Positions 11,835 through 50,127 are shown, counted from the first letter of the stretch. The stretch is DNA of 64,000 nucleotides from Kondoa subrosea (GCA_039545335.1 BCIN01000003.1:930001-994000), one strand, 5' to 3'. Numbers and translations are program-made. The notes: a model not told the origin generated them from the sequence alone.

Positions 11835-12332
11835 TATTGATTTATGCCAGTCAGTCGCGTATTGGCGGTGTTTGGGCAAGAGTCAGCGATCAGAGAGATG
11901 AGGGCTCGTCTCGAGTCGGCCAAGAACATCTTAAAGACTCTCTGTATGATGTCCCGCGCTTGGAATATGACCCAGCGCTCGCAGCCTGTCGCGTATACCA
12001 TGCTCATGTCCAGACATTGCAAGCTGAATGACATTTCTCGCATTTTTATGAATCGCCTACTTTCGCGTCCATAGCTGGACTCTACAGCCTGCCTATGCTG
12101 TCTTTTGATTTCTGGAGACGCTCTCTTCACACTACAATGCGCTGTTCAGCCAGGCACCAACTGTCGCCTCCGACTTAGTCTTTGCACTTTCCACTTTGAG
12201 TAATTCATTTACAGCCAGTCGCGATATTAAGCGGGCCACTCTCTTTCTTGTGACTCCCTTCTCTCTTCTTCCCGTACCATCATCGACTTTTTTCAAGCAA
12301 ATCATCGTCAAGTCAAGCACAAACAGAGCAGA

Positions 12333-14267
12333 ATGGAATCACTCGTGCCATCACCATTGGCTCAGATCTGCAATCTACAACTCCATCCTTTCCGCTACAA
12401 CTGCATCCGCGATTTCGCCTACGTTGCTCCTGCAGTCGTTGAACCAGCCAAAATGAACAACGCTGGTTTGGTCTACTTGTTGGTCATGAGCATCTTTGGT
12501 TGCTTGATCATGTACAATGCGGTGTTGGCTGGGCTCGAGGAATGGAATGCTATGGATTTCCAGAAGGAATATGTTCAACCTGTTTACGACTTCATTGTGA
12601 GTTTTACATTCCTTACTAATTGAGGAATGCAGTACTGATGCGAACTCATGTAGAATTTCCTTGTCGCCTATGAGAAATCTGAAGCCATGTTTGAATCAGA
12701 AGTCATTGAAGAGGAAGAGGAAGTCACTATCGTAGAGGGATTGGTCATTGCAGAAATCATTGCTGTAGCCTCACCCTGCTCAATCGGCACGGAAAGCTCT
12801 TCACCTGCCTCTCCTTCTTCTCCATCAAAGTCGAATTCAAGCGAAGACGATGCATCATCTTCGGACCCTATGGATTTGGATGAACCAGAAGAGGATAAGG
12901 ACGTCTTCTTTAATCCAATCAGTCTTCCGCCTTTACAAGAGATCAAAGAACTCAAGTCTCAAGTGGTTCGTTTCGAACAGCAACTGGAATTGGCTGCTTT
13001 CGTTGCTACTCAAAAGGTCGACAAAGCAGAACTTCAACAAACTGTCAGAGATTTCGCTCTATACCGCAAAGTCAAGCACAATGTTTCACAGAAGCTCTTC
13101 ACTGCTCAAGCTGAGATCGAAGTAAAGCAACTTCGCATTACTGAATTGGTCGCTCGGTCAGAAACTGCTCAGTCTCAAATCTCGAACCTCACAGCCGAAC
13201 TAGCTAACAAATTCACCGAAATCGAACAACAACAAGCTACAATCTCTTCTCAAACATCTGCTCTGGCCACCAATGAGGTCAAGCTTGCGGAACAGGAAGC
13301 TTTTCTTTCAAGCAAAGACGCTGAGATTACTCAACTCAAAGCCTCACTCGCTTCTTCCAAGTCCGCTCAAGCCAAAGCTAGTGTCGAAGCGAAGAAGGCC
13401 ATTCAACAACTTCAACTGCAACTAGTCAAAGCTGAAGAAGCGAATAAGGCGCAAAAGGTAGCTATAAGCGCTAAAGATAAGGAAATGGTTGATCTAAAGG
13501 AGGACATCAAGAGTTTGGAAAAGGATAACGAAGCTTACTTGAAAGCTATCGGCATGTTCACTTCCATCTACAAACCTGCTGTGAGTCAAATTACTTCCCT
13601 TTGTTTTGAGACTTCTTATTGATGAGCTCGATTCTAGATTATGCCTGTTGATGTGGTCAATCACTTTTTCGGCGACAAAGCTGAAGCTCTTCTTAAACCC
13701 TCTTTGACCAATGCAACTGAACTGGAAGCAGCAGTCAAGAGCATCAACAAGCAATTCCTCAGAGTCAAGCAGGCTACTCACCCAGACAAATTCCCTAAGT
13801 CAATCAAGGAACACATGGATAGCCTCAGCTACCTCACCGAAGCAGCTCAAAATGTCATTATTGCTGATCTCAACTTGCGAATCAAAACTATCCAAGCTGG
13901 CCCAGGACTTCAAAGAGCAATCTTAAAATGCTACACTGTTGATCCCGACACCAATCTCTATGCTGGATACAAAACATTGCAAGAAGCTTTCTTCAATGCA
14001 AGAACTTATTATGCAAACAAAGGCAATGGTAGCGGATTGACTGAATGGACTTCAGCTCATCGCAACTTTTTGGCTCGCTTGCGCGAACAGAATTTCAATT
14101 CACCTGCTCATACTCAAGCTTTCGAAGCTCTGCATCCTTGCTATGGCTGGACTCCTTCTGTTACAGAAATGGAACAAATTGTTCAACAGAATGAGTTCAC
14201 CTTTGAAGGGTATGAAGAAGTCGAAATCGATGAGCGATGCAAAGAAGATCGTCGAGAAGATGCTTGA
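12333..14267 (+). CDS. Orphan ~606-aa protein: N-terminal TM helix, acidic/Ser-rich linker, long coiled coil, C-terminal J-domain-like (HPD) region; copy A
   Basis: Exons 12333-12596, 12654-13580 and 13638-14267 join in frame through two canonical GTGAGT..TAG introns; LVYLLVMSIFGCLIMYNAVLAGL hydrophobic helix; heptad-rich Q/E/K/A region; KSINKQFLRVKQATHPDKF; identical exon structure in copy B. Confidence 0.8.
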
Positions 14268-14940
14268 GCTTGATCTTTACCTTTATGCTGTTTTGGGTTG
14301 TCGAGTCAATTCTTCACTTCTTAGTCTGTGCTGTAAATCAAGAGATGTTGTCAAGAGGTGTGTACGGAGTACAGGAGAGAGATGGATGCACTTGTGCCAG
14401 TGCTAGATTCAAGAGATCTACAGGCGCGGATTGCGTGAGTCTCATTGATCTCTTTAGATACTGTTTGCTGACCTTCTTTATGTACAGAAAACATGCCCTC
14501 GCAATCCATGTCCTTCGTGAAACCTTTCATGAGCCGTTAAAACCAAGAGCTACTTTCTTCCGAGGAGTGCTCTTTAGGCTGGAGGTGACGAAAAGTCAAA
14601 TATTGAGGTTGGGTCCAACGCTATGCCCTCGGCGTTCGGTACTGTCAGGAGTTCTATCGTCATATGAGCGATCAGAACTTCATCAAGAGATGCTAAGGGA
14701 GTGACGAGTATGTCCTTGCCTTTTACTTTGATTGACCAAGCTGATTGTCATTGCTTCAGTCTGCCATATCTGGCTCATCGATCACAAAGACTAGCTGTGG
14801 TCTTCATCAAAAGCTTCTCAAGAAGAACTGGCACTGGTATTTTGTGAGCCTCACTGCTTTGACTTTCGCTTTCCTCAAGCTGACTTAGACTTTCCAGTCT
14901 CTCTCCTCTGCGGACATGTTGACGGATTGTATGAGGTTCA
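14268..14940 (+). pseudogene. Decayed intron-containing gene relic (or spliced non-coding 3' region) inside cassette copy A
   Basis: Three canonical intron-like units (14435-14487, ~14708-14759, ~14844-14897) conserved in both copies; all frames carry stops, and two 1-nt indels differ between the copies. Confidence 0.45.
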
Positions 14941-15131
14941 TGTGTAGTGTGTCCGTCGTTCAGTATTTGTACCCGATTTATGTAAAGTGCAGTATTTGTT
15001 TTTATCGTTCTGTGTGATAATGCATTTGTTCTTCTTCACATATTTCTTATTTAGATAGGCTTCCCATCCTTATATCTCGCAGAGACCCGCAGCTTGTTGA
15101 AAGTCTTCTCTGATCAACTTCGTAATGGGTA

Positions 15132-15141
15132 CCTATAAATA
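15132..15141 (+). promoter_or_regulatory. Putative TATA box of methyltransferase copy A
   Basis: cctataaata ~210 nt upstream of ATG 15351, followed by CT-rich sequence. Confidence 0.35.
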
Positions 15142-15350
15142 TCCTCCAACCCTTCTCAAGTCTTCAGCACTTTGTCACTGTTTTTACTCTGCTTCCCATC
15201 AGACGTGCTTGTTCTACAGAAGTCAGAAGAGCATGTTGTCCTCAATCAGTGGCTGACTGTGCAGCTGACTGTTGCTGTGCTTCTAGCTTGTGCTCGTCTT
15301 CTCTCTTTATCTCTCATCACCACTGCTTTCGTCTTGACGTATCTTAGAAC

Positions 15351-16242
15351 ATGGACTCTTACATGCTTCCTAGACATGAGCAAGAGAGCCAAAGGTTAGC
15401 CTTTCTTAGCTCTGGGGCTCCGCGAAGCTGACGCGACAGACAGGCTCACTGAACAGCATCGCATGTACATGAAGCTCTTCGAAGGCAACGCAATCAGCCC
15501 CAAGATCACTTTACCCAATGATGCATCTGTTCTGGACTCAGCTACTGGCACTGCTATTTGGCTCACTGAACTTCCTTCTTCTTACCAACGCTTCGGTTGC
15601 GATCTCTCACCAGCCCAATTCCCTCCCCAAGATCAAAGAAATGGTTCTACTCTTTTCGAGCAAGATGTTACTCAACCTTTCCCGGACCAGTACCAACAGA
15701 AGTTCGATCTCGTTCATCAGCGTTTGCTCGTCTTGGGTCTTGATCGCAAGACTTGGCCTATCGCTTTAAAGAATCTCTTTAATACCATCAAACCTGGAGG
15801 ATACATTCAACTCGAAGAAATCAGCATGAAGCTTTTTGTAACCGGAACAGAGCTGCCCAAAATCTTTGAACAAGTCAACCAAATGTTAATTCAAGTAGGC
15901 GACATCACGGGTAGGGACTTCTTTGTTTCAGAAGCTTTGCCTGGACTCTTGGAAGAAGCTGGATTTTCAATGGTGGATGTAGCTCATCGCAACATGCCTT
16001 GTGGGAAAGCTGCTTTGGATGCGGGAATGAGCGAAGAGGTTGCCAATAAAAGTACGAAGAATATTCTGGCTGTTGCTAGCAACATGTATGCTGCTTTCGA
16101 AAAGACTGGGAAGCTCGACTTGCTACCTCAAGAATGGCGAACCTCGGAAGGATTCAACGAAGGCATCGAGATGACGGGTCAAGAAATTACAGACAACGGA
16201 ATGGTCGCGCATGTCACTATGCTTGTTGGCAGGAAGCAGTAA
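15351..16242 (+). CDS. Class I SAM-dependent methyltransferase, LaeA-like; copy A
   Basis: Exon 1 MDSYMLPRHEQESQR, intron 15395-15443, then LTEQH; motif I VLDSATGTAIW, GCDLSPAQFP, FDLVHQRLL, IKPGGYIQLEE. Confidence 0.9.
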
Positions 16243-16441
16243 GGGGACTTGCTGGTCACCAGTCTGAGGCTAGTTGGTCGAATTGAGGGTTTTGACAGTG
16301 ATCGCCGGAAGGATTGAAGTTATGCTGTATAACCATAAATGCATGCTGTAAATATATGAGGAAGCCAACAGCTGAAGTTGACTGAATGTTCCATTAACAA
16401 GCTTCCTCGTCATCTTGCAACAAGCAAGACAACCATTTGCA

Positions 16442-17324
16442 ATGTCTAGCCTGTCCAGTCGGAAGCATGCAAAATCCAGTGCGCAGTCTACACCGAGCGG
16501 AAGCAAGCCAGAGAAGAAGAAGGGCAAGAGCTTTGCGGCAATTGGTGTCAGTTTTATTTTTCTCGGATGCACTTCTCAGCTGTCATCTGCTTCTTCTGGC
16601 ATAAATACAACGAGTCTGAAATCGTGTCCTGTTTCTGCAGCCCAAACCTCAAGATGGGAAGTATTCTGGTCACATCGATAAACTCAAGCAGAAATTGATC
16701 GCTAAGGCTAAAGGTAGACCTTCATCTCGGATGATTCGGGGGCTGTCTCATTCGATGTGTCAGTCAAGAAATCGTATGCCAAGCTGCTCAAGAAAGAAGG
16801 GATGGCAGTAGACGAGTCGGAAAGTGCTCAAGGCGAAACGCTGATGGAAACAGACGAGCCACAGCCAGCTGAAGAAGATGAAGATATGGCGGTAGACTCA
16901 CCGCAAGCAAGTCAGAGTAAAGGCAAAGGGCGAGCTAAGGCAGTGGATTGGATGGAAGAGGACGAGACCGTCAAGCTGAAGAAACGGAAATCCGATGTCC
17001 TGTCACCTGAACCTGAAGATCCTGCGCGACCTGCAAGCGAACAACCTTTCGTGCATCCCTCTCGTCGAGGCAAACCAAAAGCGCCTGAGCGACCTGCTAG
17101 AGAACCGCCCAAAAAGAAAGTGAAACCTACACCGGATGAACTCGAGGTCATTCGTGCTAGGCGAGCGGCGGACAAGGCTGCTTTCAATCGGAAGACTAAG
17201 AAGGGTCAATTGAACCTGAATAGCAGTCAGTTTCGCCTTAGGTACTGCCAAGTTCATAGTGCTTACCTAATACTCAGGAATCGGCGTAATGCTGAAGCAG
17301 ATCGAGAAAACACACGGCAGATAA
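16442..17324 (+). CDS. Basic rRNA-processing protein, FYV7-like
   Basis: KLKQKLIAKAK-VKKSYAKLLKKEG near the N-terminus and C-terminal KTKKGQLNLNSRIGVMLKQIEK after splicing. Confidence 0.7.
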
Positions 17325-17374
17325 TCCGTAGCATCAGTATGCATGACTATGTAACATTAATGCATTGTATAACA

Positions 17375-20011
17375 TCACTTTGAATCCCAAGGATTGTCCA
17401 CGTCCGATGCATGATGCGATTCTCCCGCGAATCGACTCTCTTCTATGTATGATGGTATATCTTCTCGAGATTCTGTTGACAAAATGACTTCTTCCTGTTT
17501 GAGAGCGCCAGATGTTTGTACATCTGCTGGATTCCGATCAACAGATACTTCAAACACTTCTTGCTGCTGTTCGCTTGTGCTGGCGCCAGCTGATGATGTC
17601 CCAGATGCGGCGGATGCTTCTGGGAACCAAATCTTGCGATAGACTTTCCGCTGGCGACCTCCCAGCGCGTTTATGTCGCCCTTTTCTCGCGCTTGTCCAT
17701 CTGCTACTTCTTGCGCAGCTGCATCCTCGACCATGATATCAACGCATCCATCAGGCAAGCTCGACTTCTTGCGTCTATACCTCTTGCGCTTCTTGTCTGA
17801 ACTAGAATTTATTGCAGGCTGATCATTAGACTCTTTAGCTTTCCCATTCGACTTCTTTGGTATTGTAGGCTTGTTTCGCCGCCGGTTATAGACTATTTCA
17901 TCTTCTTCATCTCGTATTCTCCTTCGAGCAGCTTCTCTTGACGCGTCAACCACTGGACTGTTGTAATCGCCGAATTCTAGCTTCTTTGCATCTTCGAACA
18001 GCTCCTCGTCTTCGTCTTCCGGGTCACTGAATTCTAAGCTGGAATCACTTTGCGGTTCGTCGCCTTCCATATAAGGTCCACTCTGTCTTATCATTGCATC
18101 ATCTTCCCAACGACCTTCTGTATGGACAGCACTGTCGATCTCTTGAGGACTACATCTACATTTCAGCGAGAAATCATTTTCGAACCAAAATATCCACTTA
18201 CTTTGTATGAACGACCTGCGCAGCCTGCTCAGGACTTAAAGGAGCATAACCATTGATCCATTTCCTTTCTTCTTCCATTCTCTTCCTCGTTTCATCCAAA
18301 GGATGTTTGATGAAATCTTTCCAACCACTTTCCGCTCCGCTAGCTTTCTTTTTCCCATACGCTTCACCACTTTCCGCTCCAGGCATAGGTAACCAATATT
18401 TCGCTTGCCCACCTTTGGCATACCTTAACCCAGCTCGAACTCTTTTATCCCTCGCTTGACCTTGATGAACACCACCTTCAGCAGGTTCGAAAGTTCTGTA
18501 CGAGAACCCAGTTCCTCTGAATGTGGTCAAAGAATCTTGTAGTACATCTTTGAACCCAAACAGACAATCTCGCGTTGCGTAATAGAAAGGCATTCGACCA
18601 GAAAAAAGATTGTTTGGATCTATATAGTCTTTGTGTGAGAAGGCGTAGAGATGGAGGACGGCGAAGAAGGGCATTTCAACGCAGATCAATGCGTCGGTAA
18701 TGGCGAGAGAGAAATCTTCTTTAGTGTAGACATCGGATTTCAGAGCGCCTGTTGATACTAAGATGGAGATGAAGAAGGATTGCCAGAAGGTTGCAAAGAC
18801 TGTGATATAGGCCTCGACATCAAGCTTTTGCAATCAATCAATGTAAGACTTGGCTCACTAATGCCTTTGACGCAGATGAATTTTGGTAACGGCCTGTATG
18901 GAAACTGTTCCCTCGATACCTTACGATAAAGGATCGAGCTCAGTTACATACCGATATGGCTTCAAATCTTCGTGCGTGCAAGACCAAAACAACACCAAGC
19001 AGTATAGACTTAAAGCGACACTGTTTCGCGGTTCAGCTTCGGAGCACAACGAGCAATCCCTTGTGTGCTGACCTAATGTTATATACGACACTGCAATGAT
19101 CATAAGCTACTAATCGACCTTCAACAAAGGATATCCTACCTGATATACGTGTAACCGTTATCTTTGGTCAGTGTGCCTTCTTGATACTTGCCAAGCGCTT
19201 TCAAGACCATAGTAATCCCAGCCAACAGCGGTTTAAGCTGTACATATTCTGTACGCACAGCATCCTGCTCATGAAGCGTGTAACGCAGTAGAACAGGAGT
19301 GACGTACGTAGTATGCCCCTCTTCAAGCCTAGGAAAGCGAAGGGATCTGATACGTCTAAGGGTTCTAAGAAGTAGTTGCAGGGAAACACGTGAGGTGTTG
19401 AAGGTCGACCATGAAGGGTGATGATGAGGGATCGTTCTCCACCACTAGTACGAGATCAAGAATACATAGAAACATATTGTGAGATGGCTTACAGGTACTC
19501 TACGAGCAGAGAGAAGAAACAACTAGAATCCGATCAGCGCGAGACACAAGATAATACAGAATAACAATGTACTAGATAACGAAAGCCTGTGGCCCAATAT
19601 CAGCTCCTTCGCGAATTAATTTGAATCATGTACTGACTTCATAGATGTCTCGCACTGCATCCACGAAGAAAGCAGCTTCACTTGAATAGAGCGAGATTGC
19701 AGAAGATATCGAATAAACCGGAACCCTGTCTCAACTCATTCAATTGGTGCCCGGAGTATTTCCGCATTGGAATGACCGACATGACCATGATCCTGACTAC
19801 CCATCTCTGAAGGTGTATCTTCCTATACTGTTTACCACTTCGTCATCAACTTGTTCGCAATTCGTGACAAGCGGGAGAAGCAATGTACATTCTTGAGTTG
19901 TAACCAAATAGCCCATATACTGACTACCGTGCTCAAGATGGAACATGCAGTAGAAGTAGCCAAGACCCAGATTGGTAAACCGAACCCACTTCCGCCGCTC
20001 GAATCTGCCAT
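17375..20011 (-). CDS. TMEM184/OST-alpha (DUF300) family membrane protein with long charged C-tail
   Basis: SIWAIWLQLKN, LQRWVVRI, AFFVDAVRDIYE, DPFAFLGLKRGIL, ALSLYCL, FWQS and DALICVEMPFFAVLHLYAFSHKDY. Confidence 0.9.
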
Positions 20012-20181
20012 TCGCTCGAGGTTTGGTATCTTTGCAGCTCAGCTAGAGCTCAGACTTCAGCTAGAGCTTCTGCCTTGAACGGGTAGTCAAGCCTGGTCTA
20101 TTGGGTATAGAGTGTTGGACGTGATTGGAAGAAAGGGGTTGGACAGCTACCGCCGAGCTCAGCAATAGCAGAGAGGGGCAA

Positions 20182-21959
20182 ATGAATGAAGACAGAGAAG
20201 CTTTGATAGCGCAATTCAAGTCGATAGCCAATTGCAGCGATACTCAAGCCAGACAAGCACTCACGTCGAATCATTGGAACATACAGGTCGGTCCATTTCG
20301 AGCCAGAGGTCACATCGAGCTTACACCGGCATACAGACAGCTGTAGCCAACCTATTTGACGATCCTGATTCGATACAGACAGATCAGCACCCAGATCAAG
20401 TCGAACAAGAAGGTGCATTCATAGAGCGCGAACCTCTGTTGGTGGATGATTCACGTCAGACTGGATCAAGAAAGCGGTCTAATGCATATACACCTGGAAA
20501 CGTAGGCTTCGGCACAGCGCGAAGGGTGAGTTATATCTCATGTTGTCGGATTACTTGATTCTAATGACACGTATAGTTACTTCAAACACCTCTCCAACTT
20601 CTAGCTCTACCTTTCACCTTGCTCTTATATGCCCTCTCTTCCGCTTTGTCACTCATAGGTCGCATCTTTGGTGTTCGGCCAAACCTACCGTCTTTCTCAC
20701 TCAGACCTCTATTCTCATCAAGTCCAAATCGAATACTAGACGCCAGAGCAGCAGCAGAATGTTTCGTTCGAGATCTTGAAGAAGAAACAGGCAACTCATC
20801 AAGTTATTCTTCTGTCTCTACTGGACTTCAAGTTGGATCTTCTTCTTCAGCATCAAGAACAAGTCGAACATTACCAAACTTTCATATCGGATCATATGAT
20901 TCTGCTTTGACTCTGGCAAAGGACAAGATGCAACCTCTTTGTGTGATTCTTATCTCCTCAGAACACGATGATGCAGCGAGTTTCAACAAACAAACGCTTT
21001 GCGATCCAGAACTATTGGCCGCTTTTGAAAACCGGAATTTCATCGTTTGGGGAGGAGATGTAAAGTATAAAGATGCTTACCAAAGTGAGCTCATGTTTGC
21101 ACCAGCTGTTTCGATGACTTGCTAACGTGATACTGTTGCAGCCTCCCAAATATTGGAAGCGACTACTTTCCCATTTGTCGCTTTCATCACTCTTCAACCA
21201 CCTCGTTCAACACCAGGTTCACCTTCACCAGGATCAACACCTAAAATGACACTCTTTTCTCGATTAGAAGGATCCCCTTTAACCCATACTTCACCTTCTT
21301 CCATTTTAACTCATATCAACACAGTCTTTATCCCACGTACTTCAAATTATTTAGAACGTATAAAGAGGGAGAAAAGAAATAGAGAACAAGAAAGACAAAT
21401 GAGGTTAGATCAAGATGCTGCATATGCTGAAGCGGGTAGAAAAGATGTTGAACGTATTCGAGCAAAAGAATTACAGTTGGCAAAAGAGAAAGAAGCTGCA
21501 GAGATAAAGCAGAGAGAAGAAAAGGATAAAGCTAGTTTGGAAGAGAAAAAGTTGCAATATAGAAAATGGGCGAAAAGAAACTTGGTACCTACGGAAGAAA
21601 CAAATGGGGAAGGTGTAGTAGCTAGGTTGAGTGTGAAACTACCTGATGGAAGAAGATTGCAAGCCAAGTTCAACAAACAAGTTAAAGTGGAACAGCTTTA
21701 TGCTTGGATCGATTGCGAAGCTTTTGAACCTGATTGTCAACCTTCTTCAAGTTCTTCAACACCGCCAAAAGGATATCAACATCAATATGAGTTCACTTTG
21801 GTTACTATGTTCCCTAAGCGGACGTTGGCATATCAAGAGTCGAAGGAGCTGGATTTGCAAAGTGCTGGATTGGTACCTTCTGCTTCTTTGTTAGTCGAAG
21901 GAATGACTTTGGTCACGGGAGAATCTAGTGATGAGGAAGTAAGCGAGGAAGAAGCCTAG
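20182..21959 (+). CDS. UBX2: UBX-domain protein, Ubx2/FAF2 type (UBA-like, membrane hairpin, UAS, coiled coil, UBX)
   Basis: QF..IANC..ARQALTSNHWNIQ UBA-like; LPNFHIGSYDSAL..AK, HDD..FNKQTL, FIVWGGDV, TFPFVAFI UAS; VKLPDGRRL, TMFPKR, GLVPSASL UBX. Confidence 0.88.
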
Positions 21960-22040
21960 ACATCATTTATTGCATCTGTCGTTCATTCACATGTCTTTCC
22001 CCTTGTTGATGTGAATTTTGAAGTTTAACCGTTACTTATC

Positions 22041-39200: not shown

Positions 39201-40656
39201 GCCGACTGGAGGCATCTTAACAGTAACTTCAGAACTTGGTAAGCTGAATTTGCATAAGACAGTCTCTTGCTTACACCATATCGCAGGCGAGCCTATTCAC
39301 AAAGTCGCAACTCGTGGTGTCAAGCTATGGCGCGAATTCGATGACACTGTCTTCGCTCTTCCTCGGGACAAGCAAGGAGCATGGCTGAAAGAGAAGAAGG
39401 CTTATGTCATCAAGCGCCTCAATGCTGATTTTCAAAAGGTATGCGAGTCAATTCACAACCGAATTTGTGTTCTGAATGAGTTACAATAGCCTTGGTTCGC
39501 TGCGAAAGATGATGGAACGGTCTGCGACGTTGCAGATATGACCTACGGCGAAACTCTGCGCCGCATGGTCAAGCTGATGTTTGTCAAGCATCAGTCAAGA
39601 TGGGTCGACAGGTCGCTCCGTGACCTTGTTGGAGATTGGATTCGACGGATAGAGGAAAGGTGTGCAATGTTACCTTCTGACTGTGCCTAGTCTCAGACTG
39701 CCTTGTACCACTACAGAATTTCCCAGGTCCAGCCCGGAACCAAAGTCAACTCAGAATTGCAAAGCTTCGTCGAGCTCGAAGATCCTTTCAGCTTTATGGA
39801 TCGCTTCTTCAAAAAATATCCAGCTGCCAACACGCAGCTTCTGGCAGCTACAGATGCGCGTTACTTCCTCGCGATCTGTCAACGACCGGGCCAAAAACCA
39901 GTGCCTTTTATTCCTGTTCTTGATTCTACCTTCTCTGTATGGTTTAAAAAGGATTCATTATGGCAAGCAGGTGAGACTTGTTGTGGCAATGGAGAACTTA
40001 TTGCTGATTGAACTATGCAGAGGACATCGATGCGGTGGTCGATCAAGACCCTCAAAGAGTTTGCGTGCTGCAAGGGCCTGTTGCAGTCAAGCATTCCACA
40101 AAGGTTGACGAACGTCAGTACTGCTATATTCTATCTGGGCCTGATTAACAGATGTCATGTAGCTGTGGGCGAAATTCTTGGTAACATCGAATCTGGCCTC
40201 ATATCCAAAGTCCTTGCATCGCAATACAAGGGCGATGAAAGTCAAGTACCGACTGAGGCTTACCTGGCTCGCAAACCGACAGTGTCGGAAGCTGAAGTAC
40301 TAAAGAAGCACGGTATCAGACATACAACCAGCGATGGACCAGAAGGAACAACAGTCCATATCTACGACATCACAAAAGAGCTGCCATCGCATGGCGAATG
40401 GCTCGAAACACTTTCAGGGCCAAAATCGAATTGGCTCAGAGCTTTCCTCACCAGTATTTCAATCGTTCAAGGTCCAAAGGTCGTAGAGAATCAAGCAGCA
40501 AGAGTATTTGCTCCTCGCCCGAAACAGCGAGTCAAGATTGTATTCAGTCAAAATGGCGATCCGCTCAAAGTAGAGGTCAGTTTCTTATCAAAATTGGCAG
40601 AGTGTGTCCTCGTGTCTCATCTTTTTCCGCAGGTCTTCGGCGCCACAAGGAGTTGA
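36231..40656 (+). CDS. FAS1: Fatty acid synthase beta subunit containing only AT and ER domains
   Basis: FGGQG, AT active site [78 protein letters not shown]; ends VFGATRS*. Confidence 0.95.
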
Positions 40657-40830
40657 GAAGAACGACAAGAGGGTAGAAAGGGAATCATGCATCAGTTCAG
40701 TTGCTAGACATTGTAAACATCACGGGATACCAAAAAGAGAGAACAAGTCAATTGGATCGACAAAAAGCAGAGCACTAAGGTCTTTGCACAAATCATAGAA
40801 TGCATTATTTTCCTATGCTTTGTGACAAAT

Positions 40831-43385
40831 TCACGCTTTTGTGCAGAACATGCTGAAAACAAAATCAATGAGACAAGGTCGATACTAATAAGATGCCGGC
40901 TTACTCTACGAAAGTGCTGACGGGCGTGCTTTCTAATTTGCTTTGATCGGCAGTCAAGTCAAGAATCTTCTTCACATGATCAGCTGGGACTGTTAGTGAA
41001 ACGTCAGATACTGCCGGGCTCTTTGCAGAAGGTAAGACGAACAATGGGGTTCAAGGTGCCTTTTGAATTTGGCTTCCAGTACAGGAGTCCCTTCGGCTCT
41101 CCTCACTCGGTGACCAATTGGATCTATTGAATCTTAAGCAGATGTTGCGACTGCAAGTGAGGCAAACTGACATTTGATCTCAATTTCTTCCATGACTGTA
41201 CCGTCGTTGAGAGTGATCTGTAGTGCGTTACCAATAGATCTAGAAGAAGGTTCATGGTAATCTTCGCTGAAATGTCTGAGGAAGAAAAAGAGATTTAGCT
41301 CAGCAAAATGGGTTAGCTCTATGCTCACTTGTCTTCCACGCAGTACATCTTTTCTCGGAGGAGATCGATCTTAGGATCAGCTGCAACTGAATCAGAGTAC
41401 TAGCAAGTTTCGTCAGAGCTAAGTCGAGAAGAATGAAATGGAAATTACATCTTCAGTGGTGAGGCGGCCGTAGATGAGAGGAATAGCGACCATGTATTGA
41501 ATGGTGTGATCTCTGTCGGCGAAATTATCAAGCTTGCCCTTCTTGTCGATAATTCGGATCTGAAGCAACATTATCAGTCTACATTTTTCTGTTTAGAAAA
41601 GGAGACTAACGGCAGCCTCTTGTGTCCTGATACGGACTTCTTTGATGTCGTCACTGGTCTTGCCCATCGATGCTAGCTTCTGATGCAAGAGAAGAGCACA
41701 TTCGACAGCCTGTAGCATAGACAATTGCTTGAGCTCCTTCGAGCACAGTGATGTACCACCTACAGTTTGAGCGTGGAACTCTGCTGGGAAGCTGATCTTG
41801 AAGCTGAATCAATAGTCTAAGCAAAGAAGGTATGACTTCGACATGGAAACCTACAGAACGTTCTCCATGATGCTAGAAGAGAAGGGTCAGATCAAGTAAA
41901 TAATAAAGCGCATAATGCAACTGACTCTGTGAGGCACAAGGTACATTGAATGAGCGATTACCGTAGCACAGCTGGATCATAACTCACAAGATCCGTAAGG
42001 CCTTTGGAACTGGAAGGGTTTGCCCTTGAAGAGAACATCATAAAATCCCTGTTTGCCGCAGAATCTTTGAGCAATTGATTGCTAAGACGACTTTTTGACA
42101 AACCCAAGTCTTTGCCGTCAATCTGAAAGAATAATACATTGTAAGACTGATTGTCTAAGCGCTCATGCAATCGTACTCACGCCGTAGGATAACCCATTTC
42201 ACCTCTCTTGACAGTCATGGCGAGATTGACAGCTCTACTGCACGCATCTCCGGCAGCCCATGATTTTCTTGAACCAGTATTAGGCGAGTGTCTACACATA
42301 CTTCATCATCCACTGCTGCCTTTATAGTCTAATAGGACAGACCTGTAAGTACGAAGCGATTGTCCATCAATCCAAGCATGAGAAACAGCGTCAATAGTCT
42401 GGTTCAAGTCCAAGCCAAGCATTTTTGAGACGACCGCAGTGGAAGCGACTTTGACTAGAACGACGTGATCCAGACCAACTCGGTTGAAAGAGTTTTCTAG
42501 TGCTAGACAGCCTTGAATTTCATGTGCCATGATCATTCCTGTTCTGTAAACCACGCAAACGCTTATAAGAGGAAATCTCTCAATGCGAAATGATTAGCTT
42601 ACAGGACGTCCTTGACTGTTAGTTTTGCACCGGTTCGAGAGAGGAAGTCTGCTACAGCTAAGATAGCTCCAAGGTTATCAGAGGGGTGCTACACAGATGA
42701 TCAGCGTTGATGAGAATAGTGACTTTGCTGACTTACACCCCATTCAGCAGCCAAGAAGCAATCCTACTCCACATCAGTATAGAGCACAGAGTAGGTAGAA
42801 CAGGCATACGTTGAAGTCCAGCCAACGAATTTGAGTACCAATAGCGAAAGCAGCACGAACAGGATCCATTTGGTAAGGAGTACCAGGAACTTTTGATCCG
42901 TTTGGTACAATAGTGCCTTCGACAACAGGAGCCATCAGATTTCTGCAGTTGGGGCTGACTCTGAGTCCTTCGAGACCGCAACCAATAGTATCAATCAAGC
43001 ATAATCTTGCGGTGTTGTATGCTAAACTGCTATCCACCTGTGTGACTTTGAATTCAGCAGAGGTTTGTTGCGCTACATAGTCGAGATGCTTACATTGTAC
43101 TCGTGCACGTATTTGGCACTGTTTGCTCATGTTATTTAGCCGGAGCTGCTTTCATATGGATTACCGAGACTGAACGCACATATCTACAAGCACTTGATCA
43201 GGAGGCTGACGCTCTGCCTGTTCACCACCGTGTACAGCCATTGTTCTAGCAGAAGTAGAGAAAGTAGAAGCTTGAGTAGGCTGAGCGACTTGAATTATTG
43301 GTCGAAGAGTTGCAGCTGTAGCTAGACTTGGGATTGTGCGTGGGAGACTCTTTCTGATTCTTAGAGCTCTTCTGGCAGGGAGCAT
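40831..43385 (-). CDS. PDH1: 2-methylcitrate dehydratase (PrpD), mitochondrial presequence
   Basis: [98 protein letters not shown]. Confidence 0.95.
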
Positions 43386-44226
43386 TGCTTGGAACCCAGA
43401 TGATCGCTTGAGACTAAGCAGGACCCCAGTAACTAATAGAGAACTCCGCGTGAAAGTTGGGCTTGGCCTTGTTCAGCGATGTTGGTCCATAGTAGTTGCT
43501 CTGATCCTCTAGCTGTACATTATTCAGTTTCGTAATGCTTGTCTGGACTCAATGCCTTTGTGGAAACTTTCTTTCATAGACCCGCCTGAGGACCTCACTG
43601 CTCGAGTCCGGTTGTTCAGTATTCATTGCTTTCATCTCTTGTTCTTCTCATTCTTCTGATCAGTTATTGCATGCTTCTATCGCTTCTTTGCAAAATCCTA
43701 CGAGCCGAACATCATGATCAAATGAGCTTGAATATGCAACGCGTTACTATTTCGCTCGTAATAGATTGCACTCTCAGCTACAATCTCAGAGGTCGCGAGA
43801 CCCTTCTGACTTCCTGCTTGCTATCGCGCGGGATATAAATGACAAGCTACAAAGCTTTTCTCGCAATGTGATACTGAACTGAACTTATCAAGCTTCCTGG
43901 TTTGACGCGCAGATGCTAAATTCAAGCAAGATACTGCGGTGAGAGCTACTTAACTCGTAGTGTTTGGCTGAGGGATGTCAGCTGTCTTCTCAAGTTCCGT
44001 TATGTCTCGAAAATGTGTCCTCAATTAGGCTCCTCTATCCAGTGTGCAGTCCTTCATGTAATCCCAGTCTGTCTTGTTGATAAATCAGCGTAGCACAGCA
44101 GCTCCTTGACCCTCGCACACCTCGGATTAATCGAGCGCATTTTACACTCCGCACTTTCGGCTGAACGGATGATGATTACACCAGCACCCTTTGTCATCCT
44201 TTCTCTCGTTCCACAACTATACAAAA

Positions 44227-44960
44227 ATGGCTCACCAAGGATCATGCCTCTGTAAGTGTATACTTCATTGCCATTTGAGCGGCAGCTGAGTTCTTCTTGC
44301 AGGCGGAAACGTCAAGATTGTCAGTCTTGAACATGTGCTTTACGCGATTCCTTTTTGACACGGTATACAGACCCTTGCTAAGCCATTCGACGAGCAAATC
44401 ATCTGCCACGTAAGTCATGCAGCTTTCAGCCAACATCCTTTGAGCTCATACCTTTTGTCACCTTGTGGCGATCAGTGCACCGACTGCAAACAGACTTCAG
44501 GCTCTGCTTTCTCTACCAATGTCCTAGCTCAGCAAAGCGATGTGACTATTGATGGCAAGACTGCCAACTTTGACATTAAAGCTCGTCAGTACTTCCCGGG
44601 TTCAAGACATTACTGCGCTGACTTGCTTCATGTCATGCCCACAGCAAGTGGAAACACCGTTACCAGAGTCTTCTGCCCTACTTGCGGTTCTGCTATCTCT
44701 CACAAGTCAAAAGCTTTCGGTGATGCTCAAGCAATTCAAACTGGTAACTTCAAGGATTTCGCTAAAATGTGATTGCACTTGTCTGTGTGTTTGAACAATT
44801 GTGCTGATATATGATTGCTAGCCCCGTAAACACCGAATTGTTCGTCCGCGATCGATGGTCTGGCAGTAAGTAGCTCGTCAAAGTGTCTGACTGCTCTTGA
44901 GCTTATGACGCTCTTGATTTAGTCCCCAAGACTAGCGGCAAGCAAGTAGAGACTATGTAA
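44227..44960 (+). CDS. GFA/Mss4-like (CENP-V) zinc-binding protein
   Basis: MAHQGSCLC, ICH-CTDCKQTSGSAFSTN, SGNTVTRVFCPTCGS, ELFVRDRW. Confidence 0.88.
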
Positions 44961-45307
44961 AGGTCTACTCATACGTAGCTGAAAATGAAAGCGAACAAAG
45001 AACAGTTATGAAAGTCTAACTTATCAATTACCAAACACTCTCTGTTCTTCAATAATCGTTATTGTCTGTCTGTCTTCTTATCGTTCTTTCGGCTGCACAG
45101 CTCTGTCTCTCTTCTGTCAAACTCTTCTGCATCTCTCATAACTATAAGTCGTAGACTCATGTCGACTTCAACAAGTCTGCAAGTCATTGCAGAAAGTACA
45201 TTGATATCGATGATAAGCATAATTCCTGATGTCTAGATACAAGCGAGACTGTAGCAGACAAGAGGTGAGAAGTTTATTTCGCTTGCTCTAGCCATGCCCA
45301 CCAAATT

Positions 45308-46198
45308 CTACTGCTTCTTCGCAACAAGCATAGTCACTTGAGAAAACATTCCCTTGTCTGTAACCTCTTGAGCCATCGTCTGAATGCCTTCCTTGAATCC
45401 TTCCGGAGTTCGCCAAGCCTGAGGCAACAACTCGAGGTTGCCAGTCTTCTCGAAAGCAGTATACATAGCGCTTCCTACGGCAATGAGGTTCTGGGTCTGA
45501 CTATTTGCAACCTCCTCGCTCATTCCTGCATCCAAAGCAGCTTTGCCACCAGGCAGTTTGCGATGAGCTACATCCACCATTGTAAAACCAGCATCTTGCA
45601 ATAATCCAGGTAAAGCTTCCGGGATGCAAAGATCTTTCCCAGTAATATTGCTCACGTCAACTAACATCTTATTGGCCTGTTCAAAGACTTTGGATTTCTC
45701 TGATCCAGCTTCAAGAACCTTTATGCTTGCTTCTTCAAGTTGAATATATCCTCCAGGTTTGATGGTATCGAAAAGATTCTTTAGCGCGATGGGCCAAGTC
45801 TTGCGGTCAAGACCCAAGACGAGCAAACGTTGATGAACGAGGTCGAACTTCTGTTGGAACTCGGCTGGGAAAGGTTGAGTAACATCTTGCTCAAAGAGAG
45901 TAGAACCATTTCTTTGGTCTGGAGCGGGAAATTGGGCTGGTGAGAGATCGCAGCCGAAGCGTTTGTAAGAAGAAGGAAGTTCAGTGAGCCAGATTGCAGT
46001 GCCAGTAGCTGAGTCGAGAACAGATGCATCATTGGGTAAAGTGATCTTGGGACTGATTGCGTTGTTCTCAAAGAGGTTCATGTACATTCGATGTTGTGCA
46101 GTGAGTCTGTTGCCATATCAGATCGGAGGCTCCGCTCAGCAAAGTACAGCTTACCTCTGACTCTCTTGCTCATTTCTAGGCAGCAGATAGGAACTCAT
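45308..46198 (-). CDS. Class I SAM-dependent methyltransferase, LaeA-like; copy B
   Basis: Exon 1 MSSYLLPRNEQESQR plus GTAAG intron; same motifs and same length (259-aa ORF) as copy A. Confidence 0.9.
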
Positions 46199-46757
46199 AT
46201 CAATTGAATTGGGATTGAGCTAATTGTGGTAGTAACAAGCAAGAGATAAAACAGAAGAGAAATACAGTCTTGAAGCACATGGACTTTAGTGCATGGATGA
46301 GTAACTCGAAACATGACAGAATGTAATGGAAGCTTGGCGAATATAGGAGGTTGCTGTGCATTATAGGTGATCGATTGTTTAAAGCTGAGCTCAGAACCCG
46401 CAGAAAGGACAAGCAGCGATCGCGGCATGCTACATAAAAACAACCTCCTGAGTGCGTTGAACAATTGCAGCGATAGAGAACAGGACTCGCATGACTTTAG
46501 GCAGAGTAGAGACAGCAATTTTAGGAAGCATGGAAGGCAAGACAAGCTGGAATATTATGCAGAAAGTTATCCTTGAGAAACTTAGCAGCCAGACCAAGAT
46601 CAATCAACGGCTGCGCGGCATTCAGCGGCTTTCAGTAACAAACTTATGTACTGTATACGAAGGGAATGATTCGAGAATATATGATGCAAGAACATAACGG
46701 AACAGGAACTACATTATACAACGTACAAATCGGGACCAAGGACTATGACCAAGAGCG

Positions 46758-47435
46758 CTACACATAAAGCCGCACGCAACACGTCGATACGTCCGCAGGG
46801 GAGAGAGACTGGAAAGTCAAGTCAGCTCGAGAAAAGCCAGAGACAAAGCATTGAGACTCACAAAATGCAAGTGCCAGTTCTTCTTGAGAAGCTGTTGATA
46901 AGACCACAGCTGGTCTTTGTGATCGATGAGCCAGATATGGCAGACTGGAGCAATGACAATCAGCTTGGACATTAAAAGTAGAAAGCAAGAACATACTCGT
47001 CACTCCCTTAGCATCTCTTTCTGAAGTTCTGATCGCTCAAATGACGATAGAACTCCTGACAGTACCAAACGCCGAGGGCATAGCGTTGGACCCAACCTCA
47101 ATATTTGACTTTTCGTCACCTCCAGCCTAAAGAGCACTTCTCGAGAGAAGTAACTCTTGGTCTTAACGGCTCATGAAAGGTTTCACGAAGGATACGGATT
47201 GCGAGGGCATGTTTTCTGTACATAAAGAAGGTCAGCAAACAGTATCCAAAGAGATCAAAGAGACTCACCCAATCCGCGCCTGTGGATTCCTCGATTCTAG
47301 CACTGGCACAAGTGCGACCATCTCTCTCCTGTACTCCGTACACACCTCTTGACAACATCTCTTGATTTACAGCACAGACTAAGAAGTGAAGAATTTTCTC
47401 GACAACCCAAAACAGCATAAATGTAAAGATCAAGC
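46758..47435 (-). pseudogene. Decayed intron-containing relic inside cassette copy B
   Basis: Same three intron-like units as copy A; protein-like fragments (GWVQRYALGVWYCQEFYRHLSDQNF; CHIWLIDHKDQLWSYQQLLKKNWHLHF) interrupted by stops. Confidence 0.45.
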
Positions 47436-49370
47436 TCAAGCATCTTCTTGACGATCTTCTTGGCATCGCTCATCGATTTCGACTTCTTCGGGTCCTTCAA
47501 AGGTGAACTCATTCTGTTGAACAATTTGTTCCATTTCTGTCACAGAAGGAGTCCAGCCATAGCAAGGATGCAGAGCTTCGAAAGCTTGGTTGTGTGCAGG
47601 TGAATTGAAGTTCTGTTCGCGCACGCGAGCCAGAAAGTTGCGATGAGCTGAAGTCCATTCAGTCAATCCACTGCCATTGCCTTTGGTTGCATAATATGTT
47701 CTTGCACTGAAGAAAGCTTCTTGCAATGTATTGTATCCAGCATAGAGATTAGTGTTGGGATCAACAGTGTAGCATTTTAAGATTGCTCTCTGAAGTCCTG
47801 GGCCAGCTTGGATAGTTTTGATTCGCAAGTTGAGATCAGCAACGATGACGTTTTGAGCAGCTTCAGTAAGGTAGCTGAGGTTATCCATGTGTTCCTTGAT
47901 TGAATTAGGGAACTTGTCTGGGTGAGTAGCCTGCTTGACTCTGAGGAATTGCTTATTGATGCTCTTGACTGCTGCTTCCAGTTCAGTTGCATCGGTCAAA
48001 GAGGGTTTCAGTAGGGCTTCAGCTTTGTCACCAAAGAAGTGATTGGCGATATCAACAGGCATGATCTAGCATCGAGCTCGTCAGTAAGAAATCTCAAAAC
48101 AAAAAGAACAAACTGAACTCACAGCAGGCTTGTAGATGGAAGTAAACATGCCGATAGCTTTCAAGTGAGCTTCGTTATCCTTTTCCAAACTCTTGATGTC
48201 CTCCTTCAAATCAACCATTTCCTTATCCTTAGCGCTTGCAGCTGCCTTTTGCGCCTTGTTTGCTTCTTCAGCTTTGAGTAGTTGCTGTTGAAGTTGTGCA
48301 ATGAATTTCTTTGCCTCGGCACTAGCTTTGGCTTGAGATAACTTGGAAGAATCGAGTGAGGCTTTGAGTTGAGTAATTTCAGTGTCTTTGCTTGAAAGAA
48401 GAGCTTCTTGTTCATCGATCTTCGTTTCGTTAGAGGCTAGAATGGATTGCTGAGAAGAGATTGTAGCTTGTTGTTGTTCGATTTCGGTGGATTTAGTAGC
48501 TGATTCGATGTTAAGATTCGCGATTTGAGATTGAGCAGTTTCCGACTGAGCGAGCAATTCGGTAATGCGAACTTGCTTTGCTTCGATCTCAGCTTGAGCA
48601 GTGAAGAGCTTCTGTGAAATATTGTGCTTGGCTTTGCGGTACAGAGCGAAATCTCTGACAGTTTGCTGAAGTTCTGCTTTGTCGACCTTTTGGGTAGCAA
48701 CGAAAGCAGCCATCTCCAATTGCTGTTCGAGACGAACCACTTGAAACTTGAGGTCTTTAATCTGATCTAAAGGCGGAAGACTGATCGGATCAAAGAAGAC
48801 ATCTTTATCTTCTTCTGGTTCATCCAAATCCATAGGGTCCGAAGATGAAGAAGCTTCTTCGCTTGAATCAGACTTCGATGGAGAAGAAGGAGAGGCAGGT
48901 GAAGAGCTTTCATCGGTGGAGACAGCAGGTGAAGCTTCAGCAATGATTTCTTCCTTGACCAATTCCTCCTCAACAGTGACTTCCTCTTCTTCATCAATGA
49001 CTTCTGATTCGAACATGGCTTCAAGATTCTCATAGGCGACAAGGAAGTTCTAGATGAGTTCGCATCAGCATTGCATTCCTCAATCAATAAGGAATGTAAA
49101 CCTTACCATAGCATTGTAAACCGGTTGAACATATTCTTTCTGGAAATCCATAGCATTCCATTCCTCGAGTCCAGCCAACACCGCATTGTACATAATCAAG
49201 CAACCAAATATGCTCATGATCAACAAGTAGACCAAACCAGCGTTGTCCATTTTGGCTGGTTCAACGACTGCAGGAGTAACGTAGGCGAAATCGCGGATGC
49301 AATTGTAGCGAAAAGGATGGACTTGTAGATTACAGATCTGAGCCAAAGGTGATGGCATGAGTGATTCCAT
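47436..49370 (-). CDS. Orphan TM / coiled-coil / J-domain-like (HPD) protein; copy B
   Basis: ORFs of 96, 311 and 208 aa match copy A lengths; KQFLRVKQATHPDKFP conserved; both introns retained. Confidence 0.8.
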
Positions 49371-50127
49371 TCTGCTTTGTTTGTGCTTGACTTGATGATG
49401 ATTTACTTGGAAAAAGTCGATGATGGTACGAGAAAAAGAGAGAAGGGAAGGACGAGAAAGAGAGTAGCCCGCTTAATATCGCGACTGGCTGTAAATGAAT
49501 TACTCAAAGTGGAAAGTGCAAAGACTAAGTCGGACGCGACAGTTGGTGCCTGGCTGAACAGCGCATTGTAGTGTGACAAGAGCGTCTCAAGAAATCAAAA
49601 GACAGCATAGGCAGGCTGTAGAGGCCAGCTATGGACGCGAAAGTAGGCGATTCATAAAAATGAGAGAAATGTCTTTCAGCTTGCAGTCTCTGGGCACGAG
49701 CCTGGTATACGCGAGAGAGAGCAGTAGCCCTGGGTGATATCTTAAGCACGAGATATCGCAGTCTTTAGATTATCCTTGGCCGACTTAAAATGAGCTGTGT
49801 TTGGATTGTTTCGGCTGGGAGTTTGCTCTTGCAATGTGCACAAGCACCTGATCTTTTCCGAATTCTAGTGACTGCTGGTGATACAGACTTGCTCAGGAAC
49901 CGAACATTTACGTCTATCATGGCCTTTTGCTTCAGTCGCCTATCAAACCATGTATTTCTATTGCGTCTTACTAAGCTACCTGTGCTGCGGTCCGAGATAC
50001 CGGTAGAGTGCATAGACCTTAGCATGTTGGCTATTCGAAGGCGACATAAGAGGAAGAAAATGTACGAGAACAGATACAGGCGAGCCCGATGGCGAAGTCA
50101 ATGAAGACGTCGCGGCATATGAACGCG

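What the first reader, a model, noticed from the sequence alone, without database searches (positions are those of the whole stretch)
11904..49795. Duplicated two-gene module (TM/coiled-coil/J-like orphan plus SAM methyltransferase) kept intact as an inverted pair
Seen: the same ordered unit (~430 nt conserved upstream DNA, orphan gene, relic, methyltransferase) occurs at 11.9-16.2 kb (+) and 45.3-49.8 kb (-). Both copies point inward and sit between unrelated housekeeping genes (YTP1/FYV7-like and GFA/MAP1). Both genes are intact in both copies with identical exon lengths, while the relic between them has accumulated stops and indels, which implies selection on both genes. No transposase is present. 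Inference: the two genes may be a functional unit that was duplicated together, for example an effector/modifier pair, a toxin-antidote or drive element, or an allorecognition module in which each methyltransferase acts on or with its own partner. I do not recognise this pairing from any described system.
Basis: partly seen in the sequence, partly recalled or inferred. Interest (0 to 1): 0.85.

Follow-up and report, generated by a model that had tools for sequence, protein, structure and literature searches.

The report
Old inverted two-gene duplication, partly homogenised
Two neighbouring fungal genes, a lineage-restricted membrane/coiled-coil protein and a SAM methyltransferase, were copied together long ago as an inverted pair and both copies are still kept by selection, but nothing shows that the two genes work together.

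Summary
A 4.3-kb unit at 11900-16242 (+) recurs inverted at 49799-45308 (-), around 29 kb of single-copy housekeeping genes. Another assembler's 30,543-nt contig spans the centre from arm to arm.

Both genes are intact in both copies, with equal exon lengths. The orphan has 566 aa in 3 exons and the methyltransferase 280 aa in 2 exons. Pairwise dN/dS is 0.27 and 0.20, so both copies are constrained.

The two halves have different histories. Neutral proxies differ about threefold: orphan introns show 18 mismatches in 114 nt, the methyltransferase intron 18 in 48. Identity steps sharply at 12018 and 14890. This fits an old duplication followed by gene conversion over the orphan half only.

The 'relic' is not decaying. 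It is 93% identical and better kept than 4-fold sites. The decayed part is the spacer at 14891-15350.

The orphan family is tiny: 4 hits in 1.8 billion representatives. It carries an HPD loop in a helical hairpin but fails the test for J-domain membership. No linkage, expression or binding evidence could be obtained.

Verdict: an ordinary segmental duplication with gene conversion. Functional coupling is untested. Interest is low to moderate.

The parts
11900..16242 (+). Arm A of the inverted duplication (whole unit)
45308..49799 (-). Arm B of the inverted duplication (whole unit)
11900..12017 (+). Outer fringe of arm A. It is homologous to B 49799-49686 at only 71%, the old neutral level.
12018..12452 (+). 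Conserved non-coding 5' flank of orphan A (94.3%; B 49685-49251). A possible in-frame upstream start at 12333 is not settled.
   Evidence: no codon periodicity; RNA fold z 1.25 over 11986-12452
12453..12596 (+). Orphan A exon 1 (48 aa, hydrophobic N-terminal segment). B is 49250-49107.
   Evidence: The hydrophobic run is read from the sequence; no TM predictor was run.
12654..13580 (+). Orphan A exon 2 (309 aa: acidic/Ser-rich part, then a heptad-like helical part). B is 49049-48123.
   Evidence: Omega is 0.36. P0013 aligns over this part.
13638..14267 (+). Orphan A exon 3 (209 aa plus stop), the conserved C-terminal helical domain. B is 48065-47436.
   Evidence: Omega is 0.14.
13779..13787 (+). 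HPD tripeptide in the loop between two long helices (B 47924-47916)
14268..14890 (+). It is 93.2% identical and carries three intron-like signals on the gene strand, at 14435-14487, 14708-14759 and 14844-14897.
14891..15350 (+). Decayed spacer and presumed methyltransferase promoter (B 46815-46199). It is 60-71% identical, with 229 gap columns in all.
15351..15394 (+). Methyltransferase A exon 1 (44 nt). B is 46198-46155.
15444..16242 (+). Methyltransferase A exon 2 (799 nt including the stop), carrying the Methyltransf_23 domain. B is 46106-45308.
16243..45307 (.). Single-copy centre between the arms. It holds Ost-alpha, UBX, carnitine acyltransferase, SAPS, P450, FAS beta and GFA.

Best explanation
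This is an old inverted segmental duplication of two genes that happened to be neighbours. One gene is a lineage-restricted protein with a hydrophobic N-terminus, an acidic linker, a long helical part and a C-terminal helical domain carrying an HPD loop. The other is a class I SAM-dependent methyltransferase of the Methyltransf_23 (LaeA-like) kind.

Both genes have stayed functional in both arms. Later, non-allelic gene conversion between the inverted arms re-homogenised a 2.9-kb core (12018-14890) that holds the orphan gene and its flanks, but not the methyltransferase half.

SHOWN
- the duplication
- intact reading frames
- purifying selection on both genes
- the two levels of divergence and the sharp identity steps

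INFERRED
- gene conversion as the cause of the steps
- constraint on the non-coding flanks (long UTRs or regulatory DNA)
- the biochemical roles

My best guess for the orphan is a membrane-anchored, coiled-coil scaffold whose HPD hairpin contacts an Hsp70-type partner. I put that at about 0.25.
For: - Repeat: the only repeat in the window, confirmed by an independent assembler's contig spanning 15504-46046.
- Frames and selection: full frames are open in both copies. Amino-acid identity is 86.6% (orphan) and 77.1% (methyltransferase). Omega is 0.27 and 0.20.
- Two layers of divergence:
  - Orphan dS is 0.24-0.33 against 0.58 for the methyltransferase.
  - 4-fold mismatches are 29/197 against 24/95, p 0.035.
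  - Orphan introns show 18 mismatches in 114 nt. The methyltransferase intron shows 18 in 48.
  - The fringes at 11900-12017 and 14891-14960 are both 71% identical, against 94.3% and 93.2% just inside them.
- Methyltransferase: Methyltransf_23 scores 40.5 bits against a cut-off of 27. It aligns end to end with a 274-aa Xylaria methyltransferase.
- Orphan family: 4 hits with E up to 0.001 among 1.84 billion representatives. P0013 shares the helical-plus-C-terminal-domain layout.
Against: - Within the core, the non-coding flanks (73 mismatches in 1086 nt) are better kept than 4-fold sites plus introns (47 in 311; p 1.6e-5). A single conversion event followed by neutral drift does not predict this. 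It needs either constraint on the flanks or several patchy conversions.
- No third sequence or outgroup was available, so conversion cannot be told from stronger constraint or a lower mutation rate in that half.
- Retention of both genes in both arms is also what a functional pair would show.
- One contig at 14081-14093 has three times single-copy depth in both runs, so the copy number may exceed two.
Confidence: 0.62

Rival explanations
1. The two genes form a functional module. The methyltransferase acts on or with the adjacent orphan protein, and the pair is kept together in both arms because of that coupling.
For: - Both genes are kept under purifying selection in both arms, with order and orientation unchanged.
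- The genes are only about 1.1 kb apart, on the same strand.
Against: - The adjacency derives from one duplication event, so it is one observation.
- The halves have different divergence histories.
- The spacer holding the presumed methyltransferase promoter has decayed freely, so there is no sign of shared regulation.
- Methyltransferase relatives exist where no orphan relative was detected.
Confidence: 0.13
2. The 2.9-kb orphan core (the gene plus its conserved flanks) is a selfish or mobile multi-copy unit, drive-like or toxin-antidote-like. It spreads or homogenises among loci, and the methyltransferase is a bystander.
For: - The family is lineage-restricted.
- The high-identity core has sharp edges and its flanks are better kept than neutral sites.
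- One contig has three times single-copy depth.
- There are two in-frame candidate starts, at 12333 and 12453.
Against: - Omega is 0.14-0.36 with no sign of diversifying selection.
- There are no terminal repeats and no transposase or reverse transcriptase.
- The window holds only two copies.
- At 12389, 12432 and 12892-3, where contigs carry letters of neither arm, summed depth is about twice single copy.
- Fringe homology on both sides of the core shows that it sits at the same place in both arms.
Confidence: 0.08
3. The inverted arms matter structurally. They allow recombination that flips the 29-kb centre, giving an inversion polymorphism, and the genes in the arms are incidental.
For: - The arms are 4.3 kb, inverted, and 82-94% identical.
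- The evidence of sequence exchange between the arms implies that they pair.
Against: - No read or contig bridges a whole arm, so the orientation of the centre is seen only in the window itself.
- The centre holds ordinary housekeeping genes.
Confidence: 0.1
4. The duplication is an assembly artefact.
For: The only runs that hold the stretch come from one sample, which may be the window's source.
Against: - The arms differ at hundreds of positions and have different flanks.
- A second assembler gives one contig running from arm to arm.
Confidence: 0.02

Closest known systems
Inverted segmental duplications homogenised by non-allelic (ectopic) gene conversion
   Same: - Two collinear inverted arms.
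- Mosaic identity with sharp steps.
- Coding sequence kept by purifying selection.
   Different: - Only one half of the unit is homogenised.
- The non-coding flanks inside the tract are better kept than 4-fold sites.
- For the literature I saw search listings only and read no paper.
J-domain proteins (DnaJ/Hsp40, PF00226), for example membrane-anchored J proteins
   Same: - An HPD tripeptide lies in the loop between two helices and is kept in the two window copies, P0013 and P0014.
- The best solved-structure sequence match is the J domain of CWC23 (E 0.045).
- Two Atlas leads point to DnaJ clusters, scoring 0.86 and 0.85.
   Different: - There is no significant PF00226 match: E 0.13 in 1 of 6 members, and none for the window's copies.
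- The model is a two-helix hairpin with a 47-residue second helix, not the compact four-helix J fold.
- No J domain appears among the fold matches.
- P0012 has HCD in place of HPD.
LaeA-like / Methyltransf_23 fungal SAM methyltransferases
   Same: - The Pfam match is above the cut-off in both copies.
- The length matches a 274-aa Xylaria relative, with an end-to-end alignment.
- The conserved D53 and H91-Q92-R93-L94 columns are present.
   Different: - Identity to the nearest named relatives is only 28-33%.
- The glycine-rich loop reads LDSATGTA instead of the usual G-x-G-x-G. I read the loop; the usual form is recalled.
- No evidence bears on substrate or on LaeA-type regulatory function.
wtf / Spok-type fungal drive genes (recalled, not looked up)
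   Same: - A lineage-restricted, duplicated gene with a hydrophobic segment.
- Exchange between copies.
- Two candidate start codons.
   Different: - Strong purifying selection.
- Only two copies seen.
- No flanking LTRs or other repeats.
- No sequence similarity was tested.

Membership tests
J-domain (PF00226 DnaJ) | HPD tripeptide in the loop between helices II and III | tested here: met
   HPD is aligned in window copies A and B, P0013 and P0014. P0012 has HCD, and P0015 starts after it. The loop lies between helices 11-31 and 39-85 of the model.
J-domain (PF00226 DnaJ) | Significant match to the family profile | tested here: not met
   No DnaJ hit at E up to 0.1 for the window's exon 3. 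Among the 6 members of A1, 1 matches at E 0.13. The profile against solved structures gives the CWC23 J domain at E 0.045 only.
J-domain (PF00226 DnaJ) | Compact four-helix J fold | tested here: inconclusive
   The 209-aa model has pLDDT 69. The 90-aa model has pLDDT 83.8 and is a two-helix hairpin. No J domain is listed by Foldseek or VIA wide (best Z 6.3, generic helical).
Class I SAM methyltransferase, Methyltransf_23 | Profile match above the gathering score | tested here: met
   40.5 bits for copy A and 35.3 bits for copy B, against a cut-off of 27.
Class I SAM methyltransferase, Methyltransf_23 | Glycine-rich SAM-binding loop (motif I) and the acidic residue after strand 2 | tested here: inconclusive
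   The loop reads LDSATGTA in both copies, so two of the usual glycines are alanine. The D of G-x-D-L is nearly invariant in alignment A2. No structure or SAM docking was done.
LaeA orthologue (velvet-complex regulator) | Orthology to LaeA and a nuclear regulatory role | not tested
   Sources name the best hits only 'S-adenosyl-L-methionine-dependent methyltransferase', at 28-33% identity.
Segmental duplication with ectopic gene conversion | Collinear paralogous arms with step changes of identity and different neutral divergence along the unit | tested here: met
Segmental duplication with ectopic gene conversion | A phylogeny with an outgroup showing the arms closer to each other than to orthologues in part of the unit | not testable with these tools
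   No genome is held. No related loci were found.
Transposable element | Terminal repeats or target-site duplication, and a transposase or reverse transcriptase | tested here: not met
   Inside the unit there are no terminal direct or inverted repeats of 30 nt or more. No such Pfam domains were found.
Toxin-antidote / drive / allorecognition gene pair | Rapid, diversifying evolution between copies | tested here: not met
   Omega is 0.14-0.36 by exon. The highest 150-nt window reaches 0.59.
Toxin-antidote / drive / allorecognition gene pair | Presence/absence or copy-number polymorphism between strains, and segregation distortion | not testable with these tools
   Only one sample holds the stretch.

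The most novel reading that the evidence does not exclude
The orphan core (12018-14890 and its twin) may be a self-maintaining genetic unit: a lineage-restricted membrane/coiled-coil protein with an HPD hairpin, flanked by about 435 nt and 620 nt of non-coding DNA kept better than synonymous sites, with a spliced non-coding 3' part. It would be exchanged between loci by gene conversion, and either act selfishly (drive or toxin-antidote through two start codons) or depend on the adjacent methyltransferase as its modifier.
Probability: 0.07. Interest if true: 0.75.

Novelty: new member of a known kind. Interest (0 to 1): 0.3.

Why it matters
As it stands, this is a clean small example of an inverted two-gene duplication in a fungus, with a gene-conversion tract covering only one gene. 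It is useful as a caution: co-duplication of neighbours is not evidence of a functional pair.

Two points are worth a specialist's glance.
- A very small, lineage-restricted protein family carries an HPD hairpin outside the recognised J-domain family.
- Long non-coding flanks, one with three intron-like signals, are better conserved between paralogues than synonymous sites.

If the pair were shown to interact, it would link a LaeA-like methyltransferase to a chaperone-type partner. My two searches of the paper library found no such link.

Tried and rejected
SEARCHES FOR CONTEXT AND RELATIVES
- Whole genome: none is held, so copy number and other paralogues could not be searched.
- Earlier findings: nothing by place, by sequence or among relatives.
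- Longer relatives of exon 3: none with E up to 0.001 among 2396 candidates.
- Profile search with A1: returned only P0013 and P0014 again.
- Genomic context of orphan relatives:
  - The A1 alignment was too diverged for a pattern scan.
  - The scan with P0013 found 117 pattern matches, none a relative.
  - The scan with A3 found 257 pattern matches, none a relative.
  - The tool that fetches encoding contigs is closed, so linkage in relatives stays untested.

EXPRESSION AND BINDING
- No RNA holder is listed.
- Complex prediction on methyltransferase exon 2 plus orphan exon 3 gave no verdict: score 0.00 in two runs, and the alignments were not used. This is no evidence either way.

FOLD
- Foldseek against PDB gave nothing with E up to 0.001 for either model.
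- VIA wide gave only generic helical matches, best Z 6.3.

THE 'RELIC' AS SOMETHING RECOGNISABLE
- As a gene: no Pfam hit below E 0.04 in 11 ORFs scanned on both strands; these also included two ORFs of the spacer and two of the 5' flank.
- As a spliced gene: after removing the three intron-like segments, no frame is open in both copies.
- As protein: the Atlas recognition value is 1145 and the best score is 0.77.
- As RNA: two sub-threshold Rfam rows only, neither inside the relic. Folding energy is ordinary, with z 0.29 for the relic and 1.25 for the 5' flank.

OTHER
- Codon-position periodicity in the flanks: none.
- A third copy: 6 of the 26 'other letters' that I compared match neither arm. 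At 12389, 12432 and 12892-3 the summed depth is about twice single copy. Only the contig at 14081-14093 shows three times. This is not resolved.
- My first methyltransferase model started at the ATG at 15377. I rejected it because it frameshifts copy B.
- Papers: 'DUF7902' gave 0 papers. 'LaeA-like methyltransferase' plus 'J-domain' gave 0 papers. Two broader searches were seen as listings only.


Full report
THE OBSERVATION

A repeat search over the whole 64-kb window finds no direct repeat families and seven inverted pairs. All seven belong to one unit: 11986-16241 on the + strand and 49717-45309 on the - strand, with arms of 49 to 1764 nt at 72-94% complementarity. A MAFFT alignment of the two units shows homology from about 11900 to 16242.

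Two public runs of one sample hold the stretch. In another assembler's contigs of those runs, a single 30,543-nt contig covers exactly 15504-46046. Its far end maps back on arm A in the opposite direction. The inverted layout is therefore in the reads and is not peculiar to this assembly. The sample may be the window's own source, so this is a check on assembly, not on another isolate.

GENE MODELS

The orphan gene has three exons in phase 0.
- Copy A: 12453-12596, 12654-13580 and 13638-14267. The introns start GTGAGT and end TAG.
- Copy B: 49250-49107, 49049-48123 and 48065-47436.
- Both copies give 566 aa without a stop and are 86.6% identical.
- An in-frame ATG at 12333 is open in both copies and could add 40 residues. 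I could not decide between the two starts.

The methyltransferase needed care. The obvious ATG at 15377 gives a frame that works in A only and frameshifts B. With the ATG at 15351 (46198 in B) and the second AG as acceptor, both copies read through.
- Copy A: exons 15351-15394 and 15444-16242.
- Copy B: exons 46198-46155 and 46106-45308.
- Both give 280 aa and are 77.1% identical.

The length agrees with a 274-aa Xylaria relative that aligns from its residue 9 to its end.

SELECTION

Nei-Gojobori estimates by exon:

| Part | dN/dS |
|---|---|
| Orphan exon 1 | 0.16 |
| Orphan exon 2 | 0.36 |
| Orphan exon 3 | 0.14 |
| Methyltransferase | 0.21 |

Over the full models, omega is 0.27 for the orphan (bootstrap 95% 0.20-0.37) and 0.20 for the methyltransferase (0.13-0.29). 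If one copy had been free of constraint since the duplication, the pairwise value should be at least about 0.5. Both copies of both genes have therefore been constrained for most of their history. No 150-nt window exceeds 0.59, so there is no sign of diversifying selection.

TWO LAYERS OF DIVERGENCE

The unit is not uniform.

| Segment (arm A) | Identity | Note |
|---|---|---|
| 11900-12017, outer fringe | 71% | |
| 12018-12452, 5' flank | 94.3% | |
| Orphan gene, introns included | 89.0% | |
| 14268-14890, 3' flank | 93.2% | 3 gap columns |
| 14891-14960 | 71% | |
| 14961-15350, spacer | 60% | 227 gap columns |
| Methyltransferase exon 1 | 77% | |
| Methyltransferase intron | 62.5% | |
| Exon 2, first 357 nt | 90% | |
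| Exon 2, rest | 76% | |

Neutral proxies agree with this picture.
- The orphan introns show 18 mismatches in 114 nt.
- Orphan 4-fold sites show 29 in 197.
- The methyltransferase intron shows 18 in 48, and its 4-fold sites 24 in 95.
- dS is 0.24-0.33 for the orphan against 0.58 for the methyltransferase, rising to 0.94 in its 3' part.

The simplest reading is an old duplication with neutral divergence of roughly 0.35-0.6. A later gene-conversion tract between the inverted arms then reset the 2.9-kb core at 12018-14890. This is inference, because I had no outgroup.

THE 'RELIC' AND THE FLANKS

That is not what the alignment shows. The stretch between the orphan stop and about 14890 is among the best-kept parts. 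The part that decayed is the spacer in front of the methyltransferase.

Within the core, the two non-coding flanks together have 73 mismatches in 1086 nt. The 4-fold sites plus the two introns have 47 in 311 (Fisher p 1.6e-5). The flanks are therefore either constrained or were converted more recently than the coding part.

The 3' flank carries three canonical intron-like signals on the gene strand, each with a GT donor, a CTRAY branch and a YAG acceptor, of 52-54 nt. All three are kept in both copies. The same pattern occurs about 0.9 times per kb and strand across the window. The second and third intron-like segments are more diverged (14 mismatches in 106 nt) than the segments between them (26 in 471; p 0.01). 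That is what real introns in a constrained transcript would show.

Yet nothing identifies the region:
- It has no reading frame common to both copies after splicing.
- It has no Pfam match.
- It has no Rfam match at threshold.
- Its folding energy is ordinary.
- Its longest ORF does not look like protein to the Atlas model.

I take it to be a long spliced 3' UTR or a separate non-coding transcript. Without RNA data (none on record) this stays open.

WHAT THE PROTEINS ARE

The methyltransferase matches Methyltransf_23 above the cut-off in both copies. Its nearest relatives in 5.8 billion clustered proteins are only 28-35% identical. The named ones are generic SAM-dependent methyltransferases of Xylaria and Glonium. 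The glycine-rich loop is unusual (LDSATGTA), but the acidic residue after strand 2 and an H-Q-R-L block are conserved.

The orphan's C-terminal exon finds 4 proteins with E up to 0.001 among 1.84 billion representatives. All are unnamed and come from ENA or Logan assemblies. One of them, P0013 (480 aa), shares the long helical region followed by the same domain.

Four of the six aligned sequences have H-P-D-K-F in the same column. A profile of the family finds the J domain of the splicing factor CWC23 as its best solved relative, but only at E 0.045. Pfam DnaJ is not matched by the window's copies and is matched at E 0.13 by 1 of 6 members. The Atlas gives DnaJ clusters at 0.86 and 0.85, which the tool rates as leads only.

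AlphaFold models gave the following.
- The domain (pLDDT 69): an all-helical bundle.
- The 90-residue segment (pLDDT 83.8): a hairpin of two helices with HPD in the loop.
- No fold search returned a J domain.

The protein thus works possibly like a J protein, but it fails the profile test for membership.

The hydrophobic N-terminus and the coiled-coil character are my reading of the sequence. I ran no predictor for them.

ARE THE TWO GENES A UNIT?

Nothing I could run speaks for it. Their adjacency in two places stems from one duplication. Their halves diverged at different rates. The DNA between them, which should hold the methyltransferase promoter, has decayed.

Linkage in relatives could not be tested:
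- No genome is held.
- Two metagenome scans found no related locus.

A structure-based binding test gave no verdict and counts for nothing either way.

CONTEXT

The arms lie between ordinary genes.
- Outside arm A: a DUF2427 protein.
- Inside arm A: a weak rRNA_processing (FYV7-family) hit.
- Inside arm B: GFA.
- Outside arm B: a Peptidase_M24 gene.
- The centre holds Ost-alpha, UBX, carnitine acyltransferase, SAPS, P450 and FAS beta.

No mobile-element domain or terminal repeat was seen.

VERDICT

This is a real, old, inverted segmental duplication of two neighbouring genes. Both are retained under purifying selection, and the orphan half has probably been homogenised later by gene conversion. 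It is a new instance of a known kind of event.

The unexplained residue is the strong conservation of the orphan's non-coding flanks, together with the tiny HPD-bearing family. I score interest at 0.3. The boldest reading not excluded, a self-maintaining or methyltransferase-dependent orphan unit, gets about 0.07.

Noticed in passing
window 12389, 12432, 12892-12893, 14081, 14730: Contigs of the public runs carry letters that match neither arm of the window: 6 of the 26 places I compared. At the first four places the summed depth is about twice single copy, so one arm in the reads differs from the window there. That could mean another isolate, or polishing cross-talk between the arms. At 14081-14093 one contig has three times single-copy depth in both runs.
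   Followed up: partly
window 10982-11594: Outside the repeat, in the DUF2427 (YTP1-like) gene, contigs show 9 other letters at depths above single copy, and a loose end at 11594 that runs on unlike the window. This may be a paralogue or a structural difference (tables 3 and 7).
   Followed up: no
window about 50030-50240: Dinucleotide microsatellites, (CT/GA)n next to (TA)n, lie about 250-450 nt outside arm B. They show up as SLSLSL / IYIYIY / RERERE reading frames.
   Followed up: no
window 15444-15800 versus 15801-16242: Within the methyltransferase, the first 357 nt of exon 2 are 90% identical between the arms and the rest 76%. dS rises from 0.3 to 0.9 along the gene. There may be a second, older conversion edge or a gradient of constraint.
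   Followed up: partly
window 12776-12791 and 13190-13290: Mismatches between the two orphan copies cluster, for example about 14 in 16 nt at 12776-12791, in the acidic linker and the helical part. These look like replaced patches rather than scattered point changes.
   Followed up: no
window 36138-40656: A fatty acid synthase beta-subunit gene (FAS_N, SAT/AT, Fas1 helical and meander domains) and a P450 fragment at 31758-32264 lie in the single-copy centre.
   Followed up: no
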